Under the pieces are notes generated by a model. The model made no database searches. It saw nothing but the letters and a program-made list of their open reading frames with translations, and was not told the origin of the DNA. The position numbers and the translations under genes are program-made. Positions 3,022-62,060 of a stretch of 64,000 bases of DNA are shown here, one piece after another; within the stretch, counting starts at the first letter, position 1; the number at the start of each line of letters is the position of its first letter. The DNA lies in contig OX597828.1 in assembly GCA_951406725.2 (NCBI GenBank), forward strand, positions 22,506,001-22,570,000, written 5' to 3'. This stretch comes from Octopus vulgaris (Eukaryota).

Positions 3022-3865
3022 GATTGGCAACCGTTAGTCTCGAAAAACTATGGGTTTGCGGCATGGATTGGATTAGTCTTGCAGTATTGCTTGTGGCTGG
3101 TCGGTTGGTTGTCGTTTGTTTGTGGTTCGGTCTTTTTGCGTCTCCGTCTGTCCTCCGCTGCCCGATGTATGTGATCTCATTCCCTCAGGGCCGTACACAG
3201 CGTCTGACATACAGTAGGAACGGTCTTTCGTCATGTTCTCGAAGGTTTTAGTATTCATATTCATGACCTTCATGTCACGTTTGCACACATCCTTGAAACG
3301 GAGATGTGGTCGTCCCCGAGCAAGTCTGCAGGAGGCTAGCTCCCCATACAGTATATCTTTCGGCAACCTCCCATCAGGCAACCGGTGCACGTGTCCTAAC
3401 CATCGGAGACAGTGCTGCCGAAGTAGTGTGAAAGTAGTTAATGGCTGGGAACGGATATCTAGTTGTTGGTGTACAGACGTTCCACTTGACCCCGTGAATA
3501 CTCCCGAGTTTTGATCAGATGGAAAGCATTCTGGTAACGCTCTTGTCTGGCGTAAAGGCACGAGGTCTGGCGCCGCCATATAGTAAGTTGCTGAGGGCAT
3601 ATATTTTATAGACTGTGAATTTGGTGGATCTCGTCAGCTTGCCGTTTAACCACACTTTTTGAGCTAGTTTGGCGAAGGTCGAACCTGCTAATCCGATTCT
3701 CCTGTTCAGCTCCTGATCGAGTATGAGGCCATCAGTAATTGTTGAGCCAAGGTACGTAAAGTTACGGACCACATCGAGTGGTTATCGATGGAGGGGGTGT
3801 CCGAGACGCCTTGGCCCATTACCTTAGTCTTCTGTTGGCTGATTGTTATGCTCTGGTTGATCAGG
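3022..3865 (-). mobile_element. 5'-truncated, frameshifted RTE-clade LINE (RT C-terminus and 3' end)
   Basis: Across frames: KTKVM, FTYLGSTIT, ELNRRIGLAGSTF, LLYG, LRWLGHVHRLPDGRLPKDILYGEL, RGRPHLRFKDVCKRDMK, all typical of the RTE/BovB-like C-terminal region. Confidence 0.9.
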
Positions 3866-13348: not shown

Positions 13349-14610
13349 TAGGAGGTTGTGTCAAAAAGTTTCCGAACTAATTATGTTTTTAAAAATAATT
13401 ATTCACTTTAATTTTGACATCATCTCCTCCGGAATAGTCAGCTTTTGCAGCGGAATAGTCACTGGTTACAGCGATCCTGTCACTTTGGGAATCCGGCCTG
13501 AAAGTCGTTTTTCGTGAGCGAGTTGAAGACCTTCAATCATTCGCTCTGAAATTTCGACCACGGAATTAAAAAGGGCGACTGTTGAGCTGTATTTTCATCT
13601 TGGGAAAAATTGAAGTCAGCAGGTGGTAAATCTGGCGAAGAGAGTGGTTGCGGAAGAGATTCCATGCTGCTTTGGGCAAGAAATTCACGCACGAGGAAAT
13701 TTCGGTTACTGGGTGCACCATCGTCGTGAAGAATCCAATTCTTGGCCCTCCACAATTCCGATCGCTTTCCGCCAATGTCCACTCTCAAACGCTTCAAAAC
13801 ATGGCAATAGAATTCTCCATTGACGGTCCAGTCCTGGATGTCGAAGTCTCGATGCACAATAGCACGGATTTCGGAAAAAAAAAGCAAAAAAAAGCAATGT
13901 GCATGCTCTTCAATGAGCATTAAGGCGGCGAGCTGGCAGAATGTATAGCAGCACGCCGGGCGAAATGCTTAGCAGTATTTCGTCTGTCTTTACGTTCTAA
14001 GTTCAAATTCCGCTAAGGTAGACTTTGCTTTTCATCCTTTCGGGGTCGATAAATTAAGTACCAGTTGCATACTGGGGTCGATCTAATCCACTGGCCCGCT
14101 CCCCAAAAATTTCGGGCCTTGTGCCTAGAGTGAAAAGAATGCTCTTCAATAAGCTGTGACTGTGTTGTGCCTTCTTCGGTCGAGGAGATGAAGCCCTCTC
14201 CCACTGAAAAAACAACTGCTTTATCTCAGGGTCGCCAACGAAAACCCAACTCTCGTCACCGGTGATGATCTTCGACATGAAAGATGGGTCATGAGCGGCA
14301 CGCTGATCGAGATCTTGACAGACTTCGAAGCGATGTTCTTTCTTCTCAGTTGTCAGCATGTGTGGGACAAACTTGGCAGAGACACCTCCGCATGTTCAAT
14401 TCAGACGTTATTACTGCCTCCACGGACCCATACGACAGATCAACAACATTAGCAATGTGTTTCATTGTCCTCCGATAATCCTCATTCTCAAGCTGATGAA
14501 TTTACTCCACATTTCAGGGGTGACGGTCGTGGCAGGACTTCCAGATCGCCCATCGCCTTCCAGGGACGCTCTTCCGCTTTTGTCCGGGAATGTTTTGACA
14601 CCACTTCGTA
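13349..14610 (-). mobile_element. Degenerate mariner (Tc1/mariner) DNA transposon with 5' internal deletion, interrupted by a SINE
   Basis: Imperfect ~28-bp TIRs bounded by TA (TAGGAGGTTGTGTCAAAAAGTTTCCGAACT versus rc TACGAAGTGGTGTCAAAACATTCCCGGACA). Transposase motifs IITGDESWV, WILHDDGAP and SPDLPPADF. Confidence 0.9.
13919..14138 (+). mobile_element. Full-length family A SINE inside the mariner ORF, with 16-bp TSD
   Basis: TSD ATGCTCTTCAAT(G/A)AGC at 13903-13918 and 14139-14154. Confidence 0.9.
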
Positions 14611-19301: not shown

Positions 19302-19610
19302 TGTTATCAAAAAAGGGGGGTCGAATTTATTAATAATTAATTAATTATTAATAAATTCGACCAAGCAGTATTCGGTATGTAAAGACCATTTACGGTATAT
19401 TTGAAGTATTAATTTATAAAAATATGGTAAAGTAAAAGAATTCACTTTACCACACACCGAACTTTTCAGAAATAGCAGCCAAAAATTTGGCTATTTCTTC
19501 AACTGCAAATAAAAGTCTCCAGACAATGCATACTCAGAAAAATAACTCACATAGGTATAAGGGAAAAACAATGAAAGATCACATCCATATACGATACCCG
19601 AGGACAGTCT
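19300..19610. repeat. Unclassified repeat starting at a TA run, with a perfect 44-bp palindrome (19319-19362)
   Basis: GGTCGAATTTATTAATAATTAA|TTAATTATTAATAAATTCGACC; 19449-19520 resembles the reverse complement of 22716-22786. Confidence 0.6.
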
Positions 19611-22680: not shown

Positions 22681-22761
22681 GCGTCGTTTGCTTTTTAAGT
22701 GCATTGGTTTTACTGAGATCTCCCTTTTAAGTAGAAAGAATAGCCAAAACTTTTTGATTGC

Positions 22762-22818
22762 TATTTCTAAATTCGTTGTGTGGTGAGGCAAATCGTTGCT
22801 AAACCCTTAATTACTTAG

Positions 22819-22849
<31 letters not shown>

Positions 22850-22933
22850 TAATATATAAATATATATATATATATACTAAGTAATTAAGGGTTTAGCAAC
22901 GATTTGCCTCACCACACACCGAATTTAGAAATA
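22762..22933. repeat. Fold-back: 59-bp inverted arms around a (TA)n spacer
   Basis: 22762-22820 versus 22875-22933, one mismatch seen. Confidence 0.9.
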
Positions 22934-23875
22934 TACATATATACATATATATTTATATATATATATATATATATATACATAATGAAGGACACTATCTTTA
23001 TCAGTTCTCAGTTTTCTTAACATGATTTTGCAATCTCCCTACAGAATCATTCTCGCTTGTCGTGCCGAACAACTTTTATGCAACCGTTAAATATCTGCAT
23101 ACTTTGGGTTCACACTTCAGGTGTTTCCCCCATTAACCACGCGGATAATATATCGAAATAGCTCAACTGTAACCATATATCAACCATTGTGTTAAGCAAC
23201 TTATTAACAATTTGCTCTTTCTTTACCCTCGGCTTTGTTGTATCTGCGACATTGCTTTACCAACTACGCGAGCAAATCTACTTTCTTCTTTTCAATTCCT
23301 TTTCATTGCTCTGTTAAGTTCAGTTCCAACATTGCAGATCTAGCTACAAATCCCCAGCATACCGCTTCATAGGATTTCATATATTAACACCCTTGAAATT
23401 TTAAGCCCTACATTTTCGTGTTTCCGCTCGATATTGCGCTTTCAAAGAATGCTAAATTAAGAATCGGGTTATTTGTTCTGTACGTTCTCGCTCTTATTTC
23501 ATTATTTCTCTGTAGCTCGGGATCACAAACTCTACCTTCAAATTCACCAGCTATTTGCTTTTATATTAAGCGCCATCCAAACCTCTGTATCTTTATTCAC
23601 GCTCCCCACCCCTAACATTTCTGGTCCTCCATATATTTTCTTATATGCTTTGGGCAAGATGTCAAGTATCGTAAATGAAGCTTTACGGGGTTTCTGAGAC
23701 TGACGGTAGTAAGAAATAAATATATCTTTTAACCGAAAACCTAGGTCGAATATGTTTTTCCAAGGGCACACATGGTACTGTGCAGCTGTTTTAAAACTGG
23801 TATCGGATTATGTCAACATCCAGATAGACTACAGCGTGATGTGAGCTCAGAGTACAATGACCATGAAGAAATATA

Positions 23876-26743: not shown

Positions 26744-29700
26744 TTACAGATTTATGCTTAAAATAGTGTCGTCTTTCATACTGACCATTTTTGCCACTTT
26801 TACCCACTTTTTATTAAAACATTCGTTCGACAAAGCCTTCCTCTCTATTCTCATCCTCCTTTTCAAGTGGTACTTGAAAAAGTTGACGAGAGACTGACCA
26901 GAGAGGAAGGTGTTTGTTTGCAGTCCTTTCAAACGCGTCCACCACACACATTCTTTCGCCATAGCCATCAGCGTAACGAAAACCGTTTTCCCTTCCCTTT
27001 TAAAGGAAGGTGGTGGAACAATATTCACGACAGACTCGGCCGATAGGCGAGCCTGACCTACACGTGACAACAGCTGTTCGACGAAGGACCACAGCTCTGA
27101 AATATCTGGACACTGCACGAGTGCGTGCAGAACGGTTTCGTCGCTCTGACCGCATCTCGGGCAGGTCGGTCCGGTGATGGTTTTCGAACCGTGTCTGTAG
27201 CTCTTCTCTCGAACAGGTAGTGCGTCTCGATAGCACTGCCAAGCCAGGGATTTCTGGAAGTTATCCATAGGCCCCGGCCCGAACGTCGTCCTGAACAGGC
27301 GGGTTAGGAATTCCTCGTCGACGCCCAGGTTTGCCCCGAGTGTGTCGTCGGACCTCCCCTCCACTACTCCTCTATAGAACGCTTTAGTCGTTTGTAAGTT
27401 GGACAAGTTTGACCCCGGTCGGCAGAGCTGCTGTGAGAGCTTGGCGACACTCTCGGTGCCAATCGCCCAGTTTCGGTCTCTTCTTGATCCACGTTTGCAG
27501 TTCGGTCAGTGAGACGAGCTGCGGGAAGTCGCGCCTCACAAACGGCGCCCACACCTGTTCACCGTCGTCGATGAATTTCCAGAGATGTCGCAGTCTCAGC
27601 GCATGCCTGCGCACCATCAACCACGGCATGCCCAGTCCTCCATTCAACGGATGTTGACAGCAAATGGACTTGCTCACCATCGGAACGCCACCCTTCCACA
27701 GGAAGCGGAAGAGTATGCGTTCCAGTTTGGTGATGGTGGCGTCGGGACAAGGTACGACGGTCAGGCGGTAATCGATGACGGATGCGATGTACGCGTTCGC
27801 CACCTCCGCCCGGCCTTTTAGAGACAGCTTTCTCTCGGCCCATGTTTGGCTGAGAGCGACCACTCTACTCGTGATCTCGTCCCAGTTCTTATCCATTTGG
27901 AGGTCCGGACTGAACCAGACCCCGAGCAATTTAACCGGTCCGTCCGTCCAGCGTCCCACTACTGAGCCGCAGTCGGACGGCATGGGCTTGCTTCTCCAGG
28001 TGCCGAGTAGCAAACCCACTGACTTTTCCGGGTTAATCTTTGCTCCCGTCACCGTTTCATATTTTCTTAGTGTCTCGCCTATCATCTTGATGTGTTTGTC
28101 GCTCGACACTATGACGGTGACATCGTCCGCATATGCCGACACGCTCGTCCCGCAACACAGTTCCCGTGGGATGCCCCTCAGTGTCGCCAGCTTCCGCAGT
28201 AGCGGCTCGCGAGTCAATACATACAGAAGCGCCGACAGGGGACACCCCTGACGGACCGAACGCGTGATGTCAAACGGTTTCGACATGTGACCGTTCACCC
28301 GAATCACCGATCGGATGCCGCTATACAAGGCAGCGATCCAACCGCGGAAGACGGGACCGAAGCCAGCCGCCCTGAGGACGGCCGCCAAGTACCGATGGTC
28401 GACCCTATCGAAGGCTTTTGACTGATCCAAATTTATCAGCGCCCCACCCATGCCAAGATCCTTAACTACCCTGTCCACAATGTAGCGCATCAGATGGAGG
28501 TTGTCATGTATGGTTCTGCCCGGCACGGCGCATGTTTGCGCCCTGTCGACCAGTTTACCAATGACAAGCGCCAACCTCTCGGCTATTACTTTGGCCAAAA
28601 TTTTCAAATCTGCGTTGAGCAGAGTGATGGGCCTGAAATTATCTATAAAATTCCCCTTGTTTGAGTCTTTCTTCAGCAACGTCAATGCACCTCGGCTCAC
28701 GAAACCGGGGATTCTCCCGTTTTGTTGCCAGTTGCAGTAGACTGATGCCAAGAGGTCGCCAAACAAGTCTGGCATTCGACAATACAGCTCGTAGGGTAAA
28801 CCATCCAATCCAGGCGTCTTATCTCTCGCGCAGCCCGCCATCGCATCCCACACGTCAGCGGCTGTGATGGGACTTTCACAACACTCCGCTTCTCTTGCCG
28901 AGAGCCGCGGCAGGTCGGTCAGGTAGGCACTGAAATCCATCCCGCGTTCCGACCGACCACTCGCACCAAACAGTCGAGCAAAGTGCTGTTGAAAGGCCTC
29001 ACACATCCTTTCGGGTTCGAGTAAACTGCATCCCTGTTGATCTATTAGAGACCGAATGGTTGATCTGTTGCCACGCTGCGCCTCCGCTACCCGGGCCTCT
29101 CGCGCAGCTTCAATCCCTTCGTTCCTTAAGGCACGCATTTTAGCTCTGACGACGCAACCTTCGTGCTTGGCGTTGAGGTGTTGGTCGAGGGCCATCCTCG
29201 CAGCCAGCACGTTGGTTGCGCTGCCAGTGGTAAGTGCCTCTTCTAGTTTCTTAACTAAGTCTGCCTCTACTCTATTTCGTTCTATCGCTAATTCCTTGCT
29301 AAACCTAATTGATTCCGATTTTATTGCCATTTTCAGGGCGTACCACCAGCGGTTGTTAACGACCGCTCCCGTCAGCGCCCTCTTAAGTAACTCGCTAATC
29401 CGGTTCCTGTAAACCTGTCGCGCTAACAGCGACGTGTTCAGTTTCCAGTAACCGGGACCCTGCCTATGTGTTTTATCTAAGTCGAGCGTACACGTAACAA
29501 ATTTGTAATCTGTGTAGCTGACTATTTTAAATTGTGGACATCCTACACTATCCCAATCCGCTGTCCTGCATAGAATTCTATCTAGATAAGATCTCGACGA
29601 TCCGACGCGGTTTGTCCAAGTTCACGTTGGCACGTTCGGATGGTCGAGTCGGAACCTGTCAGACAAATGGAAACGTCTGAGCAGGTCTTTGAGGCTCTTA

Positions 29701-30194
29701 CACCCCCTTCTATTCCTATCCCTTCCCACATAATCTAGATGCGTGTCCAAGGTAGCGTTCCAATCCCCTACTAACAGTAAAGGTCTAGACGTACCCAGGA
29801 AAACCTCTAGACGTCTGAAGAAATCCGCCCGACCCGTTAAGGACGGTGCATAAACTGCCATCAGACGGAATGCACACCCATTTCTGCCATCCACGTCCAA
29901 GACAACCAGCCTACCCTCCGTGTCTAGGAATATTGCTCTTACTTTTACCTTTAGACTCTTTCAAAAAAGCACCGCAGTACCTCCACCACCCATGTTCGGC
30001 AGACAGGGAGAAAAATAAATGTCAAATTGATTGCCAAACATGGACTCGAGGGCCCGCGGCTTACTGAGTCTGGTTTCACTGATAGCTACTATATCCACGT
30101 CCAGTGACTTGATGTCGTTTAGAAGGTAACCTTGCTTCCAAGCCGACGCCAAGCCACGCGCATTCACACAACCTAATTTAAGCATACTTGACAT
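26744..30194 (-). pseudogene. Tx1-like ORF2: AP endonuclease, reverse transcriptase and C-terminal zinc finger (two in-frame stops, one frameshift)
   Basis: APE motifs CVNARGL, ISETR, VYAP, VGDWNA, YLDRI, PGYWKLN. RT motifs PGLDGLP, FRPITLLNADLKI, DQSKAFDRVDH, RQGCPLS, YADD. Zinc finger CPRCGQSDETVLHALVQC. TGA at 29961-63 and 29622-24, frameshift near 27430. Confidence 0.93.
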
Positions 30195-30251
30195 TTACGA
30201 AAATTGTGTTTTACACACTATATTAGAAGAGACAAGAGGCAAGAAGTGAGG

Positions 30252-32132
30252 TCACTTACTCATTTTAAAAGTTTCATTTTTTTCTTCTTCTTCTTTTGTA
30301 TTGTTTTTGATGAGGTGTTTGTATAGTTTTTTCGACAGGTATCGTTGATACCCGCCTACCGCATTCGGAAATATTGTTTTCAGTATGTGGTGTTGTGCTT
30401 GTGTTATGTGTAAAATTCTGATGTGTTTCGGTGGTGTGGTGTGCGGATGATTGTTTGTCTTAAAGTCATCTTCACAGATGACCATGTTAGATTTGATGTA
30501 GTCCATTAATTCTTTATTGTCTGTGTCTATTGCAGTTAGTTGTGTGTGTGGTTTTACGGGTTCATTACTTTTTTGATTGTCTAGGGGGATGTTGTCCTGA
30601 GTTAGATATCTCCCTGCTTTACTTCCTTGTTTGGTGGATTTTTTGGATCTTTTTCTTTTACCCCCTGTGGCTACTTGCCATTCCGTCGAACTTTCGTCGT
30701 CCGACGTATCAGTATGGGGTAGAGGCAAAACATTTGCATTACTATGCATGCTTGTATAAATTGTTGATGTTTTGTGCGGTGTTTGTGTTGTTGTGGTGTT
30801 ATGGGTAGCATTTGTCTTCTCGTCAATGTTTTCTGTCTTTTTAATTGTCGTCCTGGGTGTGGGTGTGGATCTATTTTTTGTTAATTCAACAGGTTTAATT
30901 GGTTGTGAAGTCAACGGTGATTGTGTTGTTACTGTTTCTTTTCTTGGTGATATTGGGGTTTGTTTGCTGGTTTGTTGTTTTTCTTGGCATTGTTCCATAA
31001 TTGAGTGTGTTGGTGTTGGCAACAAAGGGATTTTATTTGTTTTCTGATTTGTTTTCTTGTTTTTTCTGTATCAGATCGCACTTGGCAATCAAATGTTCGG
31101 GGCTGCCACATTTGTAGCATCTAGGCTTTTGCCTTCTGCCATAACATATAGGCATTGCCCATTCTCCAAGTATATCTTGTCGGGTAGGCTCTCGATAGAG
31201 GCCCCCTCAATCTGGATGGTCACTACTACTGTTTTTCCACCCCAATTGTCGTTTAGGTACACGGCTGTTTCTAAAATATAGATATTTTTCAAGTGGTAAC
31301 AGATTGCCCCTGTTATCCATTTGTTCGGCATATCGGGGTGTACATTTCTGATAGTAATTCTACTCACTCTCTGGTTTTTATAATAAGGGACCATGATGAT
31401 TTCATCATTTCCCAGAGACTCAGTAGAGTGAGCTTTTGCCACTTCCTGGTTAGGGAAGCAGACCACTACTGTGTTAAACTGGGGACCCCAGTTTATATAC
31501 TCTTTTTCTTTCATTATGTTTTTTAAACATTTTTCCACATCAGTTTTTGTAATCTGTTCATTTGGTTTTTTGGTTTTTCTAATAATTTTATATACAATTG
31601 TCTTATTTTCTATTTCTTGTTTTATATGTTGAGGTGTATGCAGCACTAAATCTTGTCCACGGGTTGTAAAGAGAGCTCTTGTCTCTATGAGCTCTTCATT
31701 TGTGAATGTTACTATTTCTTTCTTTTGGCGAAGAATGTCTGCGAAATTTACTGATGTTGTTGATTTTTTTGTATTAACATCTTCACTATTAGATAGTTCA
31801 TTTTTATTGTTGTTCTTGTTGTTGCTGTTGTTTTTGTCAATAGTTTTCGTTTCAGTTTTATTTTTATCATTTATGTTGGTCGTGGTAGTGGTGGTGGTGG
31901 TGGTGGAGGTGGTGGTGGTAGCAGTTGTAGTCTCGTGGTTGCTGTTGTTAGTGGTGGTGGTGGCGGTGGTGACAGGGCTGATACCGCACGTGGTTGCAGC
32001 GTTCATTTCACCGATTTTTATGTTTGCATTTTCCGTGCGTACGTTCTTTTTTTTCTCTATCGTTTCCAGACTAGGAAAATGTTGTTCCATAAAAGAACGC
32101 GACCAGCGCTCTACAATAAAATTTCTAGACAT
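30252..32132 (-). pseudogene. Tx1-like ORF1 (gag-like nucleic-acid-binding protein with CCHC knuckle), disrupted by compensating indels
   Basis: ORFs 31089..32132 and 30252..31025 share a frame. Between them an alternative frame reads RCYKCGSPEHLIAKC (CX2CX4HX4C) at ~31078-31122. Confidence 0.85.
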
Positions 32133-32338
32133 TTTCTAATGTCGAGAATAAAATTACAGAAATGAAATGGGGTCGAAACTGCCCCTAGGGGCGAATTCCT
32201 CCCTTGGAAAAGCACTCAAACGAAAGTTGGTTGCCTTACACACCTTATTTGCAAAAATTTACACATTGGGCTATAAATAGTCAAAATAAACAATTACCTT
32301 CGGAGCTGAACTGACATCACATCCGTCAATAGATAGAC

Positions 32339-49132: not shown

Positions 49133-49750
49133 CCATTGCTTATATCACGAACAAATGCCCTAGACTTTCCCAAAACCACTACAAGTTCTGGCGAAATTAT
49201 CACGTAGCGAAAAAGCTACATTGGAAGCTGTGCGAAAAGTGGGAGCTAAAGAGGGGCAATACGTGGAATGAGCACAAACTGTAAAGAGTAGTAGAGTCGG
49301 AGACAAGCTAAATCCTTTGGGATTTCCCAATCCAGACAGATCAGGTCATAACAGACCAGACCTGGTGGTGGTAGACAAGACACACCACATATGCTATATA
49401 GTTGATGTTGCATGCTCCTTTGACCCACAAATACTCAAGATGGATAAATACAAACCTCTTAAGTACGAAATAAACCGGCTATGCAAAATAAAAAAGGTGA
49501 AGATAGTGCCAATTATTTTTCTGCCCTTGGGAACATTATCAGAAGCCATCAAAGGGCATATAAAGGAAAGTAGAATTGTGTGTCCAGTAGAACTGTTACA
49601 AATGTTTTGGCCATTGGCACAGCTAGAATGATCAAGAAAGTATTAGATAGTTGAAAAGAATGGATAGCATGGCTCCATAGGCTGCAGGTAGCAAGCCCGA
49701 TGCACATGTAAGACCCCAGGAGTTCCAACAAAGCCGGTGATACAGAGAAA
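49133..49750 (+). mobile_element. 5'-truncated R4/Dong-type LINE (RLE domain) flanked by (AAT)n
   Basis: VAKKLHWKLCEKW, ILWDFPIQTD, HNRPDLVVVDK..CYIVDVAC, KYKPLKYEINRL, IVPII..LGT. (AAT)n immediately 5' (49119-49132) and AATAAT-like sequence 3'. Confidence 0.85.
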
Positions 49751-53118: not shown

Positions 53119-53503
53119 TTTGTCCGCCTTCCCTCGAGGTCGAATTTGTCTTTCATCCCTTTGGAGGTCCATAAAATATGTACCAGAAGAATACTGAGGG
53201 TCGATATAATCGATTTAGCGCCTCCCGCGAAATTAATGTCCTTGAACCAAAAATTTGAAACTTTAAAGAGGTGAGCTGGCAGAATCGCTTACACGCCGGG
53301 TAAAATGCTCAGTGGTGTTTCGTCCGACTTTACGTCTTGAGTTCAAATTACGCCGAGGTCAGCTTTATCTTTTATCCCTTTCGGGTCGATAAATATATGT
53401 ACCAGTTGAACACTGGGTTCGATGCCGTTCTATATTTAAGAGATGAGGAATTATGTACATTATTTACATTCAACGGATATTTGTCCTCATCTTGTTTGTT
53501 GTT

Positions 53504-53550
53504 AACACAACGTTTCGGCTGATATACCCTCCAAGCCTTCTTCAGGTGTC
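53504..53550 (-). ncRNA. Minimal type I hammerhead ribozyme motif
   Basis: Minus strand GACAC-CTGAAGA-A-GGCT-TGGAGGGTATATC-AGCC-GAAA-CG-TT-GTGTT: stem I GACAC/GTGTT, stem II GGCT/AGCC, palindromic ACGT stem III, GUU triplet. Confidence 0.75.
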
Positions 53551-53571
53551 TTGGGGAAATTTCGAACCCAC

Positions 53572-53644
53572 GGTCATATGGCGTATTGGTTAAGAGCGCG
53601 AGCTACTAACCCTAAGATTCCGAGTTCGATTCCAAGCAGTAACC
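53572..53644 (+). mobile_element. tRNA-derived Pol III head (pseudo-tRNA)
   Basis: A box TGGCGTATTGG (53579-89), B box GTTCGATTCC (53624-33), anticodon-like loop CTACTAA. Stems too degenerate for a functional tRNA. Confidence 0.75.
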
Positions 53645-54284
53645 TGAACAATAACAACAACAATAACAACAATAATAATTATTATTATAATAATTATAAT
53701 AATAATAATTATTATAATAATAATAATAATAATAATAATAGTAATGATAACATCGAATAATACCTGAGGAATCAGAACCCAGGTCCGAAATTTCCCCAAG
53801 ACACCAGAAAAAGGCTGGAGGGTATATTAGCCGAAACGTTGTTTTAACAGCAAACAAGCTGAGGAGAAATATCCGTCTAATGTAAATAATGTAAATAATG
53901 TAAATAACGTTTTAAAATTTTCTATTTCAGGTGAGAATGTTTGTGTTTCACCCGTAGGATCAATCAGCATTGAAATGCTGCTTCGCAATGTCAACAATAA
54001 CGACAAAGACGACAAGAATTTTTAAAGAATTCAACAACGAAACCATAACAGCAACACTGTAGCTAAAACAAAAGCAATCTTAAACAATATATTTGTAATA
54101 GATTTCCGTAGAAATCTCTATAAAAAGAGAATAAAAGGAATTGTAACATATCTATAACATCAGCGACAACAACAAATTCAACAAAGCGACAGTGAGGAAA
54201 TATTTCAAATATGTTCTGTGACATACAAAAAGAATATCTATATAACAAGGAATTACGAAGTGCATCTTAAAATTGTGTAACGGA

Positions 54285-58730: not shown

Positions 58731-58941
58731 TATGTCCGACTACCTAGCAGTCCAGCCCTGCCAATATACACATATATATATATATATATATATATCCGTA
58801 AATATTAGAGAGTCAACTTTGAATATGTTAACTCTAGTGCTAGAAATAGGTCCGATCGGTAAAAGTCGCCGACGATAAATCCACATAGGAATAGCACCAC
58901 AATCAACGCTATGAAATTAAATTACTACTAAATAATGGATT

Positions 58942-59018
58942 AATGTTGTACAATTGTTTCTTCATTAACAAAATGCAGATTATACTTACATAATTGTCTA
59001 TGATTCATCAGCAACATT
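58942..59018 (-). ncRNA. Mirror hammerhead ribozyme motif (left arm)
   Basis: Exact reverse complement of 59066-59142. Confidence 0.8.
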
Positions 59019-59065
59019 TGTCAATATAATTGTCGCTTGTAAGGGTCTGATCAATTATATTGACA

Positions 59066-59142
59066 AATGTTGCTGATGAATCATAGACAATTATGTAAGT
59101 ATAATCTGCATTTTGTTAATGAAGAAACAATTGTACAACATT
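59066..59142 (+). ncRNA. Type I hammerhead ribozyme motif (right arm)
   Basis: AATGTTG-CTGATGA-[A-TCAT-AGACAA...TTGTTA-ATGA-A]-GAAA-CAATTG-TA-CAACATT: 7-bp stem I, canonical core, palindromic ACAATTGT stem III, GUA triplet (cut after 59135). The stem II closing pair is an A.A mismatch. Confidence 0.8.
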
Positions 59143-59386
59143 AATCCATTATTTAGTAGTAATTTAATTTCATAGCGTTGATTGTGGTGCTATTCCTATG
59201 TGGATTTATCGTCGGCGACTTTTACCGATCGGACCTATTTCTAGCACTAGAGTTAACATATTCAAAGTTGACTCTCTAATATTTACGGATAAATATGAAT
59301 TTGTGTCCCCGGTTTTTTGTGCTAGGTCGCTTGGTGTTAAAATAAGGGTATTATTGAATTAATATCTATAATTTTATTCACCCTCA

Positions 59387-59434
<48 letters not shown>

Positions 59435-59537
59435 GGCCGACTACCTAGCAGTCCAGCCCTGCCAATATACACACATATATATATATATATATATATATGG
59501 GAGGGGGTGTATGTGTATGTTTATATATAACATATAT

Positions 59538-62060
59538 AGTAACATCCTTATGATGGGAGATTTTAATCTTCTCTCTGTTGATTGGTTTACAAACAATTTG
59601 AAACCAGGCGCTCCCACCTGAATCTCTGACAAAGAAGCAGTAGAATCACTTCTCGTTTCTATGAATTAGTGTTTCCTGTACTAAGATTTAAGAACATTCT
59701 AGATTTAGTGTTTAGTGACCACACTATCACTCTACATAATCTTACAGTGGAAAAAGACCTTACTTTCAGATCATGACATGGTTCTCTGTAACCTAAACGT
59801 CCACCAGCCGAAAGCTCATCCTATTGACCGCACTGTAGCCAACCCATTTGATAATATGGATCTCTATAATGCCAACTGAGATGCAATCATGATCAAGCTT
59901 TCAGATGTTGACTGGTCTTTCACATATTCACACACCATACCCAGCATGAAGACATCTTGGCAGAACTTTGAAAACACTGTTAAAAATGTATGTGCAAAAC
60001 ACACCCCACCAAGACCTGTGAACAAAGTGCAGATTTCTCCAAAATGGAAAAAACTATTATCAGAAAAATAAAAACAATGAACAAGGAAATCAACAAACTA
60101 AAATACTACCAACAGCCACAAATATATTCGATGGCTCTCTCCCTGCACGAATCAAAATTATATAACCTCCAACAATACATGAAGACCGTCATCAATAACC
60201 AAAGAACAACTGAGAAGAAATGTGCCATTGAGAAAAATCAAATTCATTCCTGAAGTGTTCTCTTTTGAAAAGAAACACAAGTTCACTGTCTCCACTGTTG
60301 GCCCTCAAATTGATGAAAATGGCACTTTCCTAGATAATGCCAAAACTATGAATGGGATACTGCAGAAACAATACTGTTCTGTTTTCATCAATCTTGATAT
60401 GGCCGATCTGGGCTGTATAAGTACCATTAATCCCCAACACACTATATCTGACGTAAAGTTTGGCGCCACTGGCGTCTTAGCGTCAATAAACGAAATTAAA
60501 CACAATTCAGCAATAGGCCCTGATAGGTTCCCTCCTTGTATCCTGAAGGTTTGTCGACACCAACTTGCATCTCCTCTTGTTGTAATCTGGGGAGGAACTC
60601 ACTGGATGCTGACTATATTCCTGAAAACTTTCTGCCCCATTCTGTTGTCCTAGTTTTCAAAAAGGGAAACAAGTCCCTTACAGTGTACTACTATCCGATC
60701 TTGGTCACCTCCAATATCATGAAGGTATTTGAAGAGGGTGGTGACATTACTAATAACTCACTTTCTTGAAAGCAACAAATGCTGAATCCCAACCAACATG
60801 GGTTCCGTAACTGAAGTAAATGCCTAATGCAGCTTCTGCATCACTTTGATGACCTTTTGGGAGCTTTGAGAGAGGGCTCCAACACCGATGTCATCTACCA
60901 TGATTCCAGTAAGGCTTTTCACAGGGTTGATCATAAGATTCTCTTGAAAGAAAAACTATCGAACACTAGTGTCTCTGGAAAGTTACTAGAATGGATCAAG
61001 CGTTTCCTGACAGACATTGTAGCTGAAGGAATGAAATCAAGACCAGCCAAATTCAGTACTGGTGTTCCACAAGGCACTATTTTGGCCCCATTTCTTTTCA
61101 TCATCTACACTAATGACATTACTGACATCACCAAGCATGGCAACATAAGAATCTTTGCAGTAGATTCCAAGATCCAGAAGGTCGTCAAGGAAGTAGGTGA
61201 CCGGACATGTCTTCAGCCAAACCTACTGGCTGTCATCCAATGGGCGGAAAGGAACAATATGCTGCTGAAGGACAAATTTGAGTTGATCCGCTCTAAAAAA
61301 GAGGATATCCTGAAAGCCCCATACTCCCTTCTGTCAGGTGAAGCACTCATGGTATGAAACAACATCAGAGACTTGGGAGTATTTGAGGACAAAAACGTAA
61401 GCTGGGCCGTTCATATAAACAACAAAGTTGACATGGCCCGCAGAATGTCTCCCTGGATTCTCAAAACTTTCCAGTCGAGAGATATCCATGCCATTACCCT
61501 TCTCTTCTCCACTTTTGCCCGGCTCAACATTTTATACTGTTCTCCACTCTAGTCTCCCAACACGAAACAGAGTATCATGAAAGTTGAAGCACACATATGG
61601 TCAATTGCCAAAAAGATAGATAGCATGTCAGGCCTTGACTATTGGGGGTCGACTTGAAAAGCTCAAGCCTTATTCTCTCCAACGTCGCCGTGAGCGCTAC
61701 ATCAACTGCATGATGGGGAAAATATTCACTTTTTAAGTTACATCCAAAGCCCGGGCCGCGTGATATCCACCCACTACATAAATCACACTCGCATCTCATA
61801 ACAATAATACGGCACACTTATTTCACCTCAGTTGGCCCCGCTCTCTTTAACATTACACCAAAACACATTAAAGCAGGAACAGATCCCATAAAGTTCAAGA
61901 AGTCTTTGGACAAATTCCTTCAAAAAATCCCAGATAAACCTCCTACACCCGGCTATGTCTCCGTAAACAATAACCCTCTACTTGAGTGGGCCTTATTGTC
62001 CAAATGCTGATTTAATAGCACCACTTCGCCAAGTGGTGCTATTAAGTTCAAACTATTGTG
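59538..62060 (+). mobile_element. Decayed CR1-group LINE ORF2 (endonuclease and RT) with many stops and frameshifts
   Basis: ILMMGDFNL, NILDLVF, SDHDMV, GPDRFPPCILK, PNQHGFR, DVIYHDSSKAFHRVDH, GVPQGTILAPFLFIIYTND, IFAVDSKI, RDLGV. Confidence 0.9.

What the first reader, a model, noticed from the sequence alone, without database searches (positions are those of the whole stretch)
58793..59390. Perfect 240-bp hairpin carrying twin, divergently oriented hammerhead ribozymes
Seen: exact 240-bp arms and a 19-nt loop. Each arm holds a complete type I HHR (7-bp stem I, CUGAUGA, long stem II, GAAA, palindromic ACAATTGT, GUA). The right arm continues ~100 nt to a (TA)n run. Inference: a very recent PLE/retrozyme-like insertion formed by fold-back during reverse transcription. 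Read-through from either strand would give both a 240-bp dsRNA (a potential ADAR or siRNA substrate) and a competing ribozyme fold.
Basis: partly seen in the sequence, partly recalled or inferred. Interest (0 to 1): 0.8.

Follow-up and report, generated by a model that had tools for sequence, protein, structure and literature searches.

The report
Head-to-head Penelope-type ribozyme insertion
This perfect DNA hairpin is two back-to-back copies of the end of a multi-copy repeat that carries a hammerhead (self-cutting RNA) motif, likely pasted in at one go by a Penelope-type jumping-gene enzyme; the layout is already known for that class, and the hairpin is predicted to block the ribozyme rather than use it.

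Summary
Observation confirmed in the assembly: exact 240-bp arms (58793-59032, 59052-59291), a 19-nt loop, and one type I hammerhead per strand (cut predicted after 59135). Additions: a 60/62-bp direct repeat (58736-58795, 59437-59498) brackets the insert like a long target-site duplication, and this copy has an A·A mismatch at the base of stem II. Contigs of two organisms show a multi-copy, indel-rich, probably non-coding family. None of 32 core, stem I and stem III positions varies, against 32 of 190 downstream; the free N7 does vary. The loop is ordinary family sequence. An inverted 5'-truncated copy, a one-sided tail, a (TA)n target and opposite-strand twin hammerheads are published features of Penelope-like elements. 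An unrelated family shows the same layout about 5 kb away, and this scan noted it before in other genomes. Likely mechanism: both nicked ends primed reverse transcription and the two cDNAs were joined head to head; fold-back is the rival. On read-through the hairpin is predicted to beat the ribozyme fold by about 100 kcal/mol, and no transcript holds two sense ribozymes. Untested: fold-back junction in reads, empty site, cleavage, transcription, parent RT. New member of a known kind; low interest.

The parts
58736..58795 (+). Left copy of candidate target-site duplication (36 nt unique plus 24-nt TA tract; last 3 nt shared with the left arm)
   Evidence: Identical to 59437-59498 except one 2-nt AC indel; its first 30 nt occur only twice in the window at up to 8 mismatches; empty site not seen
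58793..59032 (-). Inverted, 5'-truncated, tail-less copy of the element end (left arm)
   Evidence: Exact reverse complement of 59052-59291
58942..59018 (-). Type I hammerhead motif on the minus strand (core starts at 59011)
   Evidence: Descriptor scan; mirror of 59066-59142
59033..59051 (+). 19-nt loop: the extra 5' sequence of the direct copy, ordinary family sequence
   Evidence: Contigs run through it and 53-106 nt further upstream: X2 record 17, X11 record 9, X3 record 25
59052..59291 (+). Direct copy of the element end (right arm)
   Evidence: family contigs in 4 of 4 runs laid
59066..59142 (+). Type I hammerhead motif: 7-bp stem I, CUGAUGA, long stem II with A·A at its base, 2-bp stem III with palindromic AAUU loop, GUA, predicted cut after 59135
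   Evidence: 0 of 32 core, stem I and stem III positions vary in family contigs; cleavage untested
59235..59297 (+). 63-nt stretch invariant in the family, holding a 9-bp stem-loop just inside the outer end of the arm; candidate RT binding or start signal (inference)
   Evidence: No variant at 5% or more in 4 runs; fold
59292..59391 (+). About 100-nt extension present on the right side only (analogue of the PLE tail, longer than the published 30-40 bp)
   Evidence: Sequence; family contigs cover it
59392..59436 (.). 42-nt TA tract plus CGG between element and right duplication; origin unexplained
59437..59498 (+). Right copy of candidate target-site duplication (62 nt)

Best explanation
The hairpin is two head-to-head copies of the hammerhead-bearing end of a multi-copy, probably non-coding repeat, likely laid down in one recent insertion by a Penelope-like (PLE) reverse transcriptase/endonuclease that would have primed from both ends of a staggered break. 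Shown: the two exact arms, the one-sided extension, the flanking 60/62-bp direct repeat, the TA-rich site, a family in two organisms with a conserved hammerhead core, and that the loop is normal family sequence. Inferred: nicks about 57-60 bp apart gave the duplication. One 3' end copied the RNA from its far 3' start (with the 100-nt extension) back to 59033. The other, using 3 nt of TA microhomology, copied the same kind of RNA from an inner start (59288-59291) back to 59052. The two truncated cDNAs were then joined at their 5' ends. The ribozyme is an inherited passenger: in the parent RNA it likely cuts with help from a second sense copy or the PLE protein, while here read-through from either side is predicted to zip into a 240-bp duplex that excludes it. 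No function of this locus is proposed beyond being a possible dsRNA source if transcribed.
For: Layout equals the published PLE layout: inverted 5'-truncated copy at the 5' end, tail on one side, (TA)n bias (PMC8557442 passages); head-to-head inverted pLTR shorter than the direct one, with TSD (PMC3846280 passages); dual hammerheads 100-700 bp apart on opposite strands (PMC4209133). A purified PLE protein cleaves and extends both strands, prefers AT-rich DNA, starts at two internal RNA sites that define the tail, and does not need hammerhead cleavage to insert (PMC11167929). Family: 112, 46, 60 and 13 contigs laid in X1, X2, X3 and X11, spread from 99%+ to under 90% alike. Within the core only N7 varies; 59080 A>T restores the 10.1-11.1 pair; two stem II changes keep G-U pairs; 0 of 32 against 32 of 190, Fisher p=0.006. 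Two other opposite-strand joints with different breakpoints (59044/59231 in X3, 59061/59231 in X11), and TA runs directly behind the arm's outer end in X1 and X2. Seven single-base indels in 59219-59317 and no frame open across the piece argue against coding. A second, unrelated head-to-head hammerhead pair lies at 53450-53899. Read-through energies -168 against -65 kcal/mol with the ribozyme forced.
Against: No RT/GIY-YIG gene was linked to the family: no genome is held, and none of 14 chosen ORFs gave a GIY-YIG match. The extension (100 nt) and duplication (about 60 bp) are longer than the 30-40 bp and 8-10 bp in the passages read. Both arms share 59195 C, which no laid contig of 4 runs shows: easy under fold-back or later conversion, but two-ended priming needs a donor-specific variant. 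Rfam finds no hammerhead. The conservation test uses related, contig-level variants, and a non-ribozyme stretch (59235-59297) is equally invariant. Against all 268 other positions the contrast is weaker (38 variable, p=0.02). Empty site and inner junction were not seen in reads.
Confidence: 0.55

Rival explanations
1. Same PLE-type insertion, but the left arm arose by fold-back: the 3' end of the first cDNA (or an antisense template) looped back over 19 nt and self-primed, copying 240 nt before capture by the left target end through 3 nt of TA microhomology.
For: Arms share a letter (59195 C) absent from all laid contigs; 3-nt microhomology at the outer junction; self-priming proposed for head-to-head Penelope junctions (PMC3846280 Discussion).
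Against: No palindrome at the inner junction, the sign on which that proposal rested. TA runs behind the same outer end in 3 contigs of 2 runs hint at a fixed start, but may be this locus alone. PLE protein extends both strands in vitro.
Confidence: 0.28
2. The hairpin is a unit copied whole (MITE-like or a fold-back master copy), or two separate insertions later homogenised by gene conversion.
For: Perfect arms beside a duplication that has already taken a 2-nt slip; a private shared letter could be conversion.
Against: High-depth contigs leave the loop into sequence that was not reported as the mirror arm, and other inversions have other breakpoints. There are no terminal inverted ends, because the right side has 100 extra nt. 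Two independent copies 1-2% apart would match over 240 nt with probability 0.09-0.008.
Confidence: 0.07
3. The locus is a kept, transcribed dsRNA/ribozyme switch (siRNA source or ADAR decoy) with a host function.
For: A perfect 240-bp duplex would form if transcribed (-412 kcal/mol); A-to-I editing favours young repeats across animals (PMC9989829 passages); Penelope copies give small RNAs in a rotifer.
Against: No host exon or promoter identified; the surroundings are microsatellites and decayed LINE pieces. The ribozyme fold is not competitive. A>G differences occur in DNA runs too, so they are not editing.
Confidence: 0.05
4. Assembly or long-read fold-back chimera.
For: 100% arm identity; inner junction not checked in reads.
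Against: The mirror stops at 240 bp and is followed by different, unmirrored flanks. A direct repeat brackets the insert, which a fold-back read would not create. Contigs with the arm end running into TA exist in a second study (X2). The right flank is present unchanged in X1 and with 2 differences in X3. A decayed pair of the same layout lies about 5 kb away.
Confidence: 0.05

Closest known systems
Complex insertions of endonuclease-positive Penelope-like elements (inverted pLTR plus tail): Adineta vaga Pen2a/Pen3a (PMC3846280, passages and Discussion), general scheme (PMC8557442, passages and Fig. 2 legend; PMC8969392, passages)
   Same: Head-to-head inverted copy that is more 5'-truncated than the direct one, extension on one side only, TA-microsatellite site, flanking duplication, hammerhead inside the repeat, arm length about 200-240 bp
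   Different: No ORF body, only the two ends; extension about 100 nt rather than 30-40; duplication about 60 bp rather than 8-10; 19-nt non-palindromic spacer rather than an overlap or palindrome; parent RT not identified
PLE minimal hammerheads, including opposite-strand pairs in Schistosoma (PMC4209133, parts 1-2 of 4)
   Same: Type I, enlarged stem II, palindromic 15.2-16.2/loop 3, pairs on opposite strands 100-700 bp apart, low activity expected for a monomer
   Different: 7-bp stem I (4-5 there); A·A or U-A at 10.1/11.1 instead of the conserved G-C; no clear extra base between 9 and 10.1; 2-bp stem III with tetraloop
Metazoan non-LTR retrozymes (PMC7229834, passages and section 15; bioRxiv 10.64898/2026.07.22.740005, part 1 of 5 and passages)
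   Same: Non-coding, AT-rich, type I hammerhead with 2-bp stem III and tetraloop; axolotl HHR_Amex2 has a U·U mismatch at the base of stem II and still cleaves 22% in 1 h as a monomer; proposed to be PLE-derived
   Different: No head-to-tail tandem here and no 'go-back' joint in 4 runs; circular RNA untested; any monomer would be longer than the 356 nt laid
Poseidon element of Anolis (PAc) in vitro (PMC11167929, parts 1-2 of 4)
   Same: Gives the biochemistry the best explanation borrows: both strands cut and extended, two RT starts, AT-rich target, protein-assisted hammerhead not needed for insertion
   Different: In PAc the ORF starts inside the hammerhead; here no frame stays open and the family is rich in single-base indels

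Membership tests
Type I hammerhead ribozyme | CUGANGA and GAAA boxes, NUH triplet, three stems with open stem I in the right order | tested here: met
   chance 0.03 per window
Type I hammerhead ribozyme | Paired base of stem II (10.1-11.1) | tested here: inconclusive
   A·A in this copy; other family contigs have U-A (59080 A>T in 4 of 4 runs); U·U precedent cleaves weakly
Type I hammerhead ribozyme | Core conserved and stems kept across family copies | tested here: met
   0 of 32 positions vary, N7 varies, two G-U-keeping changes in stem II; no two-sided compensatory pair proven on one contig; stem I is invariant and so uninformative for covariation
Type I hammerhead ribozyme | Match to an Rfam hammerhead model | tested here: not met
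   probably due to the 44-nt stem II (inference); Rfam match is not a defining biochemical feature
Type I hammerhead ribozyme | Self-cleavage at the predicted site | not testable with these tools
   Needs an assay; contigs cannot show RNA ends
EN+ Penelope-like element insertion | Inverted 5'-truncated copy adjacent to the 5' end (head-to-head) | tested here: met
EN+ Penelope-like element insertion | 30-40-bp tail on one side | tested here: inconclusive
   One-sided extension present but about 100 nt
EN+ Penelope-like element insertion | AT-rich or microsatellite target, TSD optional | tested here: met
   TA tracts at both ends and a 60/62-bp direct repeat; empty site not seen
EN+ Penelope-like element insertion | Telomerase-like RT plus GIY-YIG ORF in full-length family members | not testable with these tools
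   No genome held; 0 hits in two metagenome scans; upstream family sequence not readable
Non-LTR retrozyme | Head-to-tail tandem monomers of 150-450 bp, each with a hammerhead | tested here: inconclusive
   Not tandem at this locus; no go-back joint on the 356-nt piece in 4 runs; a longer monomer is not excluded
Non-LTR retrozyme | Non-coding, low GC | tested here: met
   No frame open across 59033-59388; 7 single-base indels in the family; 31% GC in the 2-kb bin
Non-LTR retrozyme | Expressed as linear and circular RNA | not testable with these tools
   No run on record as RNA was listed
MITE | Terminal inverted repeats at both ends, short fixed TSD, many whole copies | tested here: not met
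   Right end carries 100 extra nt, the duplication is about 60 bp, and family contigs leave the loop into other sequence

The most novel reading that the evidence does not exclude
A non-coding hammerhead RNA family is copied by a PLE dimer that nicks about 60 bp apart and primes from two fixed starts 100 nt apart; each such insertion traps its own ribozyme in a perfect 240-bp duplex and, when read through, becomes a hairpin source of siRNA or edited RNA that silences the family, a built-in brake on its own spread.
Probability: 0.1. Interest if true: 0.55.

Novelty: new member of a known kind. Interest (0 to 1): 0.2.

Why it matters
Mostly as a clean footprint. How PLEs build inverted ends and tails is still open (PMC8557442 and PMC11167929 say so), and a young insertion with readable junctions, a 60-bp duplication and a 100-nt extension is a usable data point for telling two-ended priming from fold-back. 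One locus cannot settle it. The family is also a natural test of a hammerhead with A·A against U-A at the base of a long stem II. It gives no sign of a new system or of a host function.

Tried and rejected
Whole-genome family search: no genome held. Rfam: 0 matches at gathering level; the E-value lists hold only sub-threshold miRNA and snoRNA matches caused by the hairpin and AT content. Metagenome scans with two family patterns: 0 and 0. Viral scan with a generic core pattern: 111 loci, 0 of 111 with hammerhead stems, best BLAST hits 25 nt, treated as chance. Scan look-ups by sequence, near and relatives: nothing. Expression: no RNA holder listed. X11 is only guessed to be RNA and was not used as evidence. 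Contig starts at 59132 near the cut site occur in DNA runs too and lie 30 nt from a common variant, so I rejected them as a cleavage signal. A>G differences are in DNA runs, so I rejected them as editing. Empty-site test: laying the right flank on X1, X2, X3 and X7 gave no cover over the repeat-rich part that holds the duplication, so TSD status and polymorphism stay open. Loop-versus-extension likeness (would imply a 294-nt period): reached by 53 of 2000 shuffles, not corrected for having been spotted by eye, not relied on. Cofold of two sense hammerheads (-32.4 against -22 kcal/mol): structure not inspected, not used. Two loose ends suggest a C-G to U-A change in stem II but lie on different contigs; not counted. 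Copy number: depth is not copy number; exact-match contigs were roughly 10-30 times the flank depth in X1 and X2 and one was about 2 times in X3, a rough inference only. Literature: 'Penelope + head-to-head + twin priming' gave 0 papers; 'octopus + Penelope + hammerhead' listed 4, none by title on this family (listing only); some searches were used as listings.

Full report
Observation. The arms 58793-59032 and 59052-59291 are exact reverse complements (240 bp) around a 19-nt loop. No other inverted repeat with a complex perfect match in the window comes close; the next of 13 diagonals is 56 bp. Each arm holds a type I hammerhead motif: on the + strand, stem I 59066-72/59136-42 (7 bp), CTGATGA, a 44-nt stem II region, GAAA, a 2-bp stem III with palindromic AATT loop, and GUA with the cut predicted after 59135. 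These were the only 2 hits in 64 kb; 30 simulated windows gave a mean of 0.03. The motif numbering is recalled and agrees with PMC4209133. Positions 10.1 and 11.1 are A·A in this copy. The insert is bracketed by a direct repeat, 58736-58795 and 59437-59498, identical over 60 bp but for one AC indel, with equal 24-nt TA tracts; its first 30 nt occur nowhere else in the window at up to 8 mismatches. Rfam shows no hammerhead match.

Setting. The window is rich in microsatellites (124 rows). Of 14 ORFs I chose from 122, three matched Pfam (two RT, one zf-RVT) and none matched GIY-YIG. I found no host exon, but did not run a gene finder. No genome is held. The label 'octopus-like' comes from earlier scan notes and my recall, not from a test.

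Family. The run search listed 24 runs; 6 held half or more of the words, from three organism labels, and none is on record as RNA. I laid 4 of the 24 on 59033-59388 (contigs only, X1 read to about 80%, 32 of 233 pieces and 20 of 36 loose ends shown; X1 may be the source sample). 112, 46, 60 and 13 contigs were laid, from 99%+ to under 90% alike, in organisms A and B. Within the hammerhead, substitutions at 5% or more were 59077 (the free N7), 59080 A>T (restores the 10.1-11.1 pair), 59097 and 59106 (both leave G-U pairs) and 59118 (unpaired), plus a 2-nt insertion in stem II. None of 32 core, stem I and stem III positions varied, against 32 of 190 downstream (p=0.006) or 38 of 268 other positions (p=0.02). 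The variants are related by descent, and a 63-nt non-ribozyme stretch is equally invariant, so this is supportive and not proof. Seven single-base indels and the lack of an open frame point to non-coding sequence. Three listed contigs pass through the loop and run 53-106 nt beyond 59033 with no strand-change joint reported there, so the loop is normal family sequence and the mirror arm is not the usual upstream neighbour (inferred; the upstream letters were not shown). Two other opposite-strand joints with different breakpoints were listed (X3, X11), which I read as further head-to-head copies. Three contigs in X1 and X2 run from the arm's outer end into TA, as at the left junction here. Both arms carry 59195 C, which no laid contig shows; contigs drop rare variants. 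Laying the right flank on 4 runs showed unique flank in X1 (0 differences over 128 nt) and X3 (2 differences) but no cover over the part with the duplication, so the empty site is untested.

Same layout nearby. A relaxed scan found an unrelated minimal hammerhead on the - strand at 53545. Its 119-nt arm has an inverted, decayed partner at 53782-53899, 90% alike and head-to-head. Earlier scan notes hold 51 findings in at least 12 genomes under these words. These are unchecked AI notes and not support, but they show that the scan has met this before on other DNA.

Mechanism. PLE insertions often have an inverted 5'-truncated copy at the 5' end, a 30-40-bp tail on one side and a microsatellite target (PMC8557442, passages; PMC8969392, passages). 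Rotifer Penelopes have shorter inverted pLTRs with 8-10-bp TSDs, and self-priming was proposed from palindromes at the junction (PMC3846280, passages and Discussion). Hammerhead pairs 100-700 bp apart on opposite strands were reported in 2014 (PMC4209133, parts 1-2 of 4). A purified PLE protein cuts and extends both strands, starts at two internal RNA sites that define the tail, and inserts without hammerhead cleavage (PMC11167929, parts 1-2 of 4). I therefore favour two-ended priming: staggered nicks about 57-60 bp apart, one cDNA from the far start with the 100-nt extension, one from an inner start using 3 nt of TA microhomology, joined at their 5' ends (inferred, 0.55). Fold-back is the main rival (0.28): it explains the shared private letter, but the junction has no palindrome. 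The two routes together, both PLE-type, carry about 0.83. Long TSDs are known for other retrotransposons (126 bp for R9, about 900 bp for Dualen; PMC9977147 passage); I did not see one of 60 bp for a PLE in the passages read (listing; supplements and figures not seen). The TA tract plus CGG at the right junction is unexplained: CGG mirrors both the target end and the arm's outer end, each a 1-in-64 coincidence.

What it would do. The two motifs are on opposite strands, so any transcript has one sense ribozyme and its antisense. For + read-through to the end of the motif the best fold is -168 kcal/mol, against -65 with the ribozyme forced; for the whole insert the gap is 109; for an RNA starting in the loop it is 2.4. 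The minus strand follows by symmetry of the arms. So the ribozyme is predicted to be excluded unless transcription starts inside. Even then a 2-bp stem III and the A·A mismatch suggest weak monomer activity: an axolotl motif with a U·U mismatch there cleaved 22% in 1 h, more as a dimer (PMC7229834 section 15). If transcribed, the duplex is a plausible ADAR or Dicer substrate, as for young repeats generally (PMC9989829, passages), but I have no expression evidence either way.

Membership. It works like a PLE end insertion and meets the structural features, with a longer tail and duplication. The RT link could not be tested, so I cannot say whether the parent is an autonomous PLE or a PLE-mobilised retrozyme-like RNA (bioRxiv 10.64898/2026.07.22.740005, part 1 of 5 and passages); the non-coding signs lean to the latter or to a UTR. 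It is not a MITE.

Verdict. Real in the assembly and very likely in the genome; a young and tidy example of a known layout. New member of a known kind, interest 0.2.

Noticed in passing
window 53450-53899: Second, unrelated head-to-head hammerhead pair: intact PLE-type minimal motif on the - strand (core at 53545, extra A, G-C closing pair, palindromic AACGTT) and a decayed inverted copy on + (90% over 119 nt). The spacer holds a tRNA-like stretch with A- and B-box-like words (recalled motifs; ARAGORN found 0 genes) and an (AAT)n run, so it may be a tRNA-headed SINE with a PLE-type hammerhead end.
   Followed up: partly
window 26744-32135 (-): Nearly intact L1/Tx1-like LINE: 745-aa open frame with RVT_1 (E 9e-30), a zf-RVT frame and an upstream ORF1-like frame; clade label recalled. 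No canonical hammerhead beside it in my scans.
   Followed up: partly
window 22760-22935: Inverted repeat with a 56-bp perfect core per arm around a TA-rich spacer of about 60 nt; MITE-like, no hammerhead core seen.
   Followed up: no
window 59434-59439: Right junction reads CGG|CCG, a 6-bp palindrome; the first bases made on both sides of the insert would be CCGTA. Unexplained.
   Followed up: no
window 59032-59049 and 59326-59349: The loop resembles part of the 3' extension (8-nt and 7-nt words in order, offset 294 nt); 53 of 2000 shuffles score as well.
   Followed up: partly
window 53260-53424 and about 20 other places: A dispersed repeat of about 160 nt (70-85% alike) occurs many times in the window, SINE-like.
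   Followed up: no
window 13537-14395 (-), 49272-49631 (+), 59540-61357 (+), 3073-3633 (-): Decayed pieces that look like a Tc1/mariner transposase, a restriction-like endonuclease of a non-LTR element, a CR1/L2-type LINE (RVT_1 E 6e-12 at 60815-61357) and an RTE-type LINE; labels recalled except the Pfam hit.
   Followed up: no
window 19319-19362: 44-bp AT-rich perfect palindrome without spacer.
   Followed up: no
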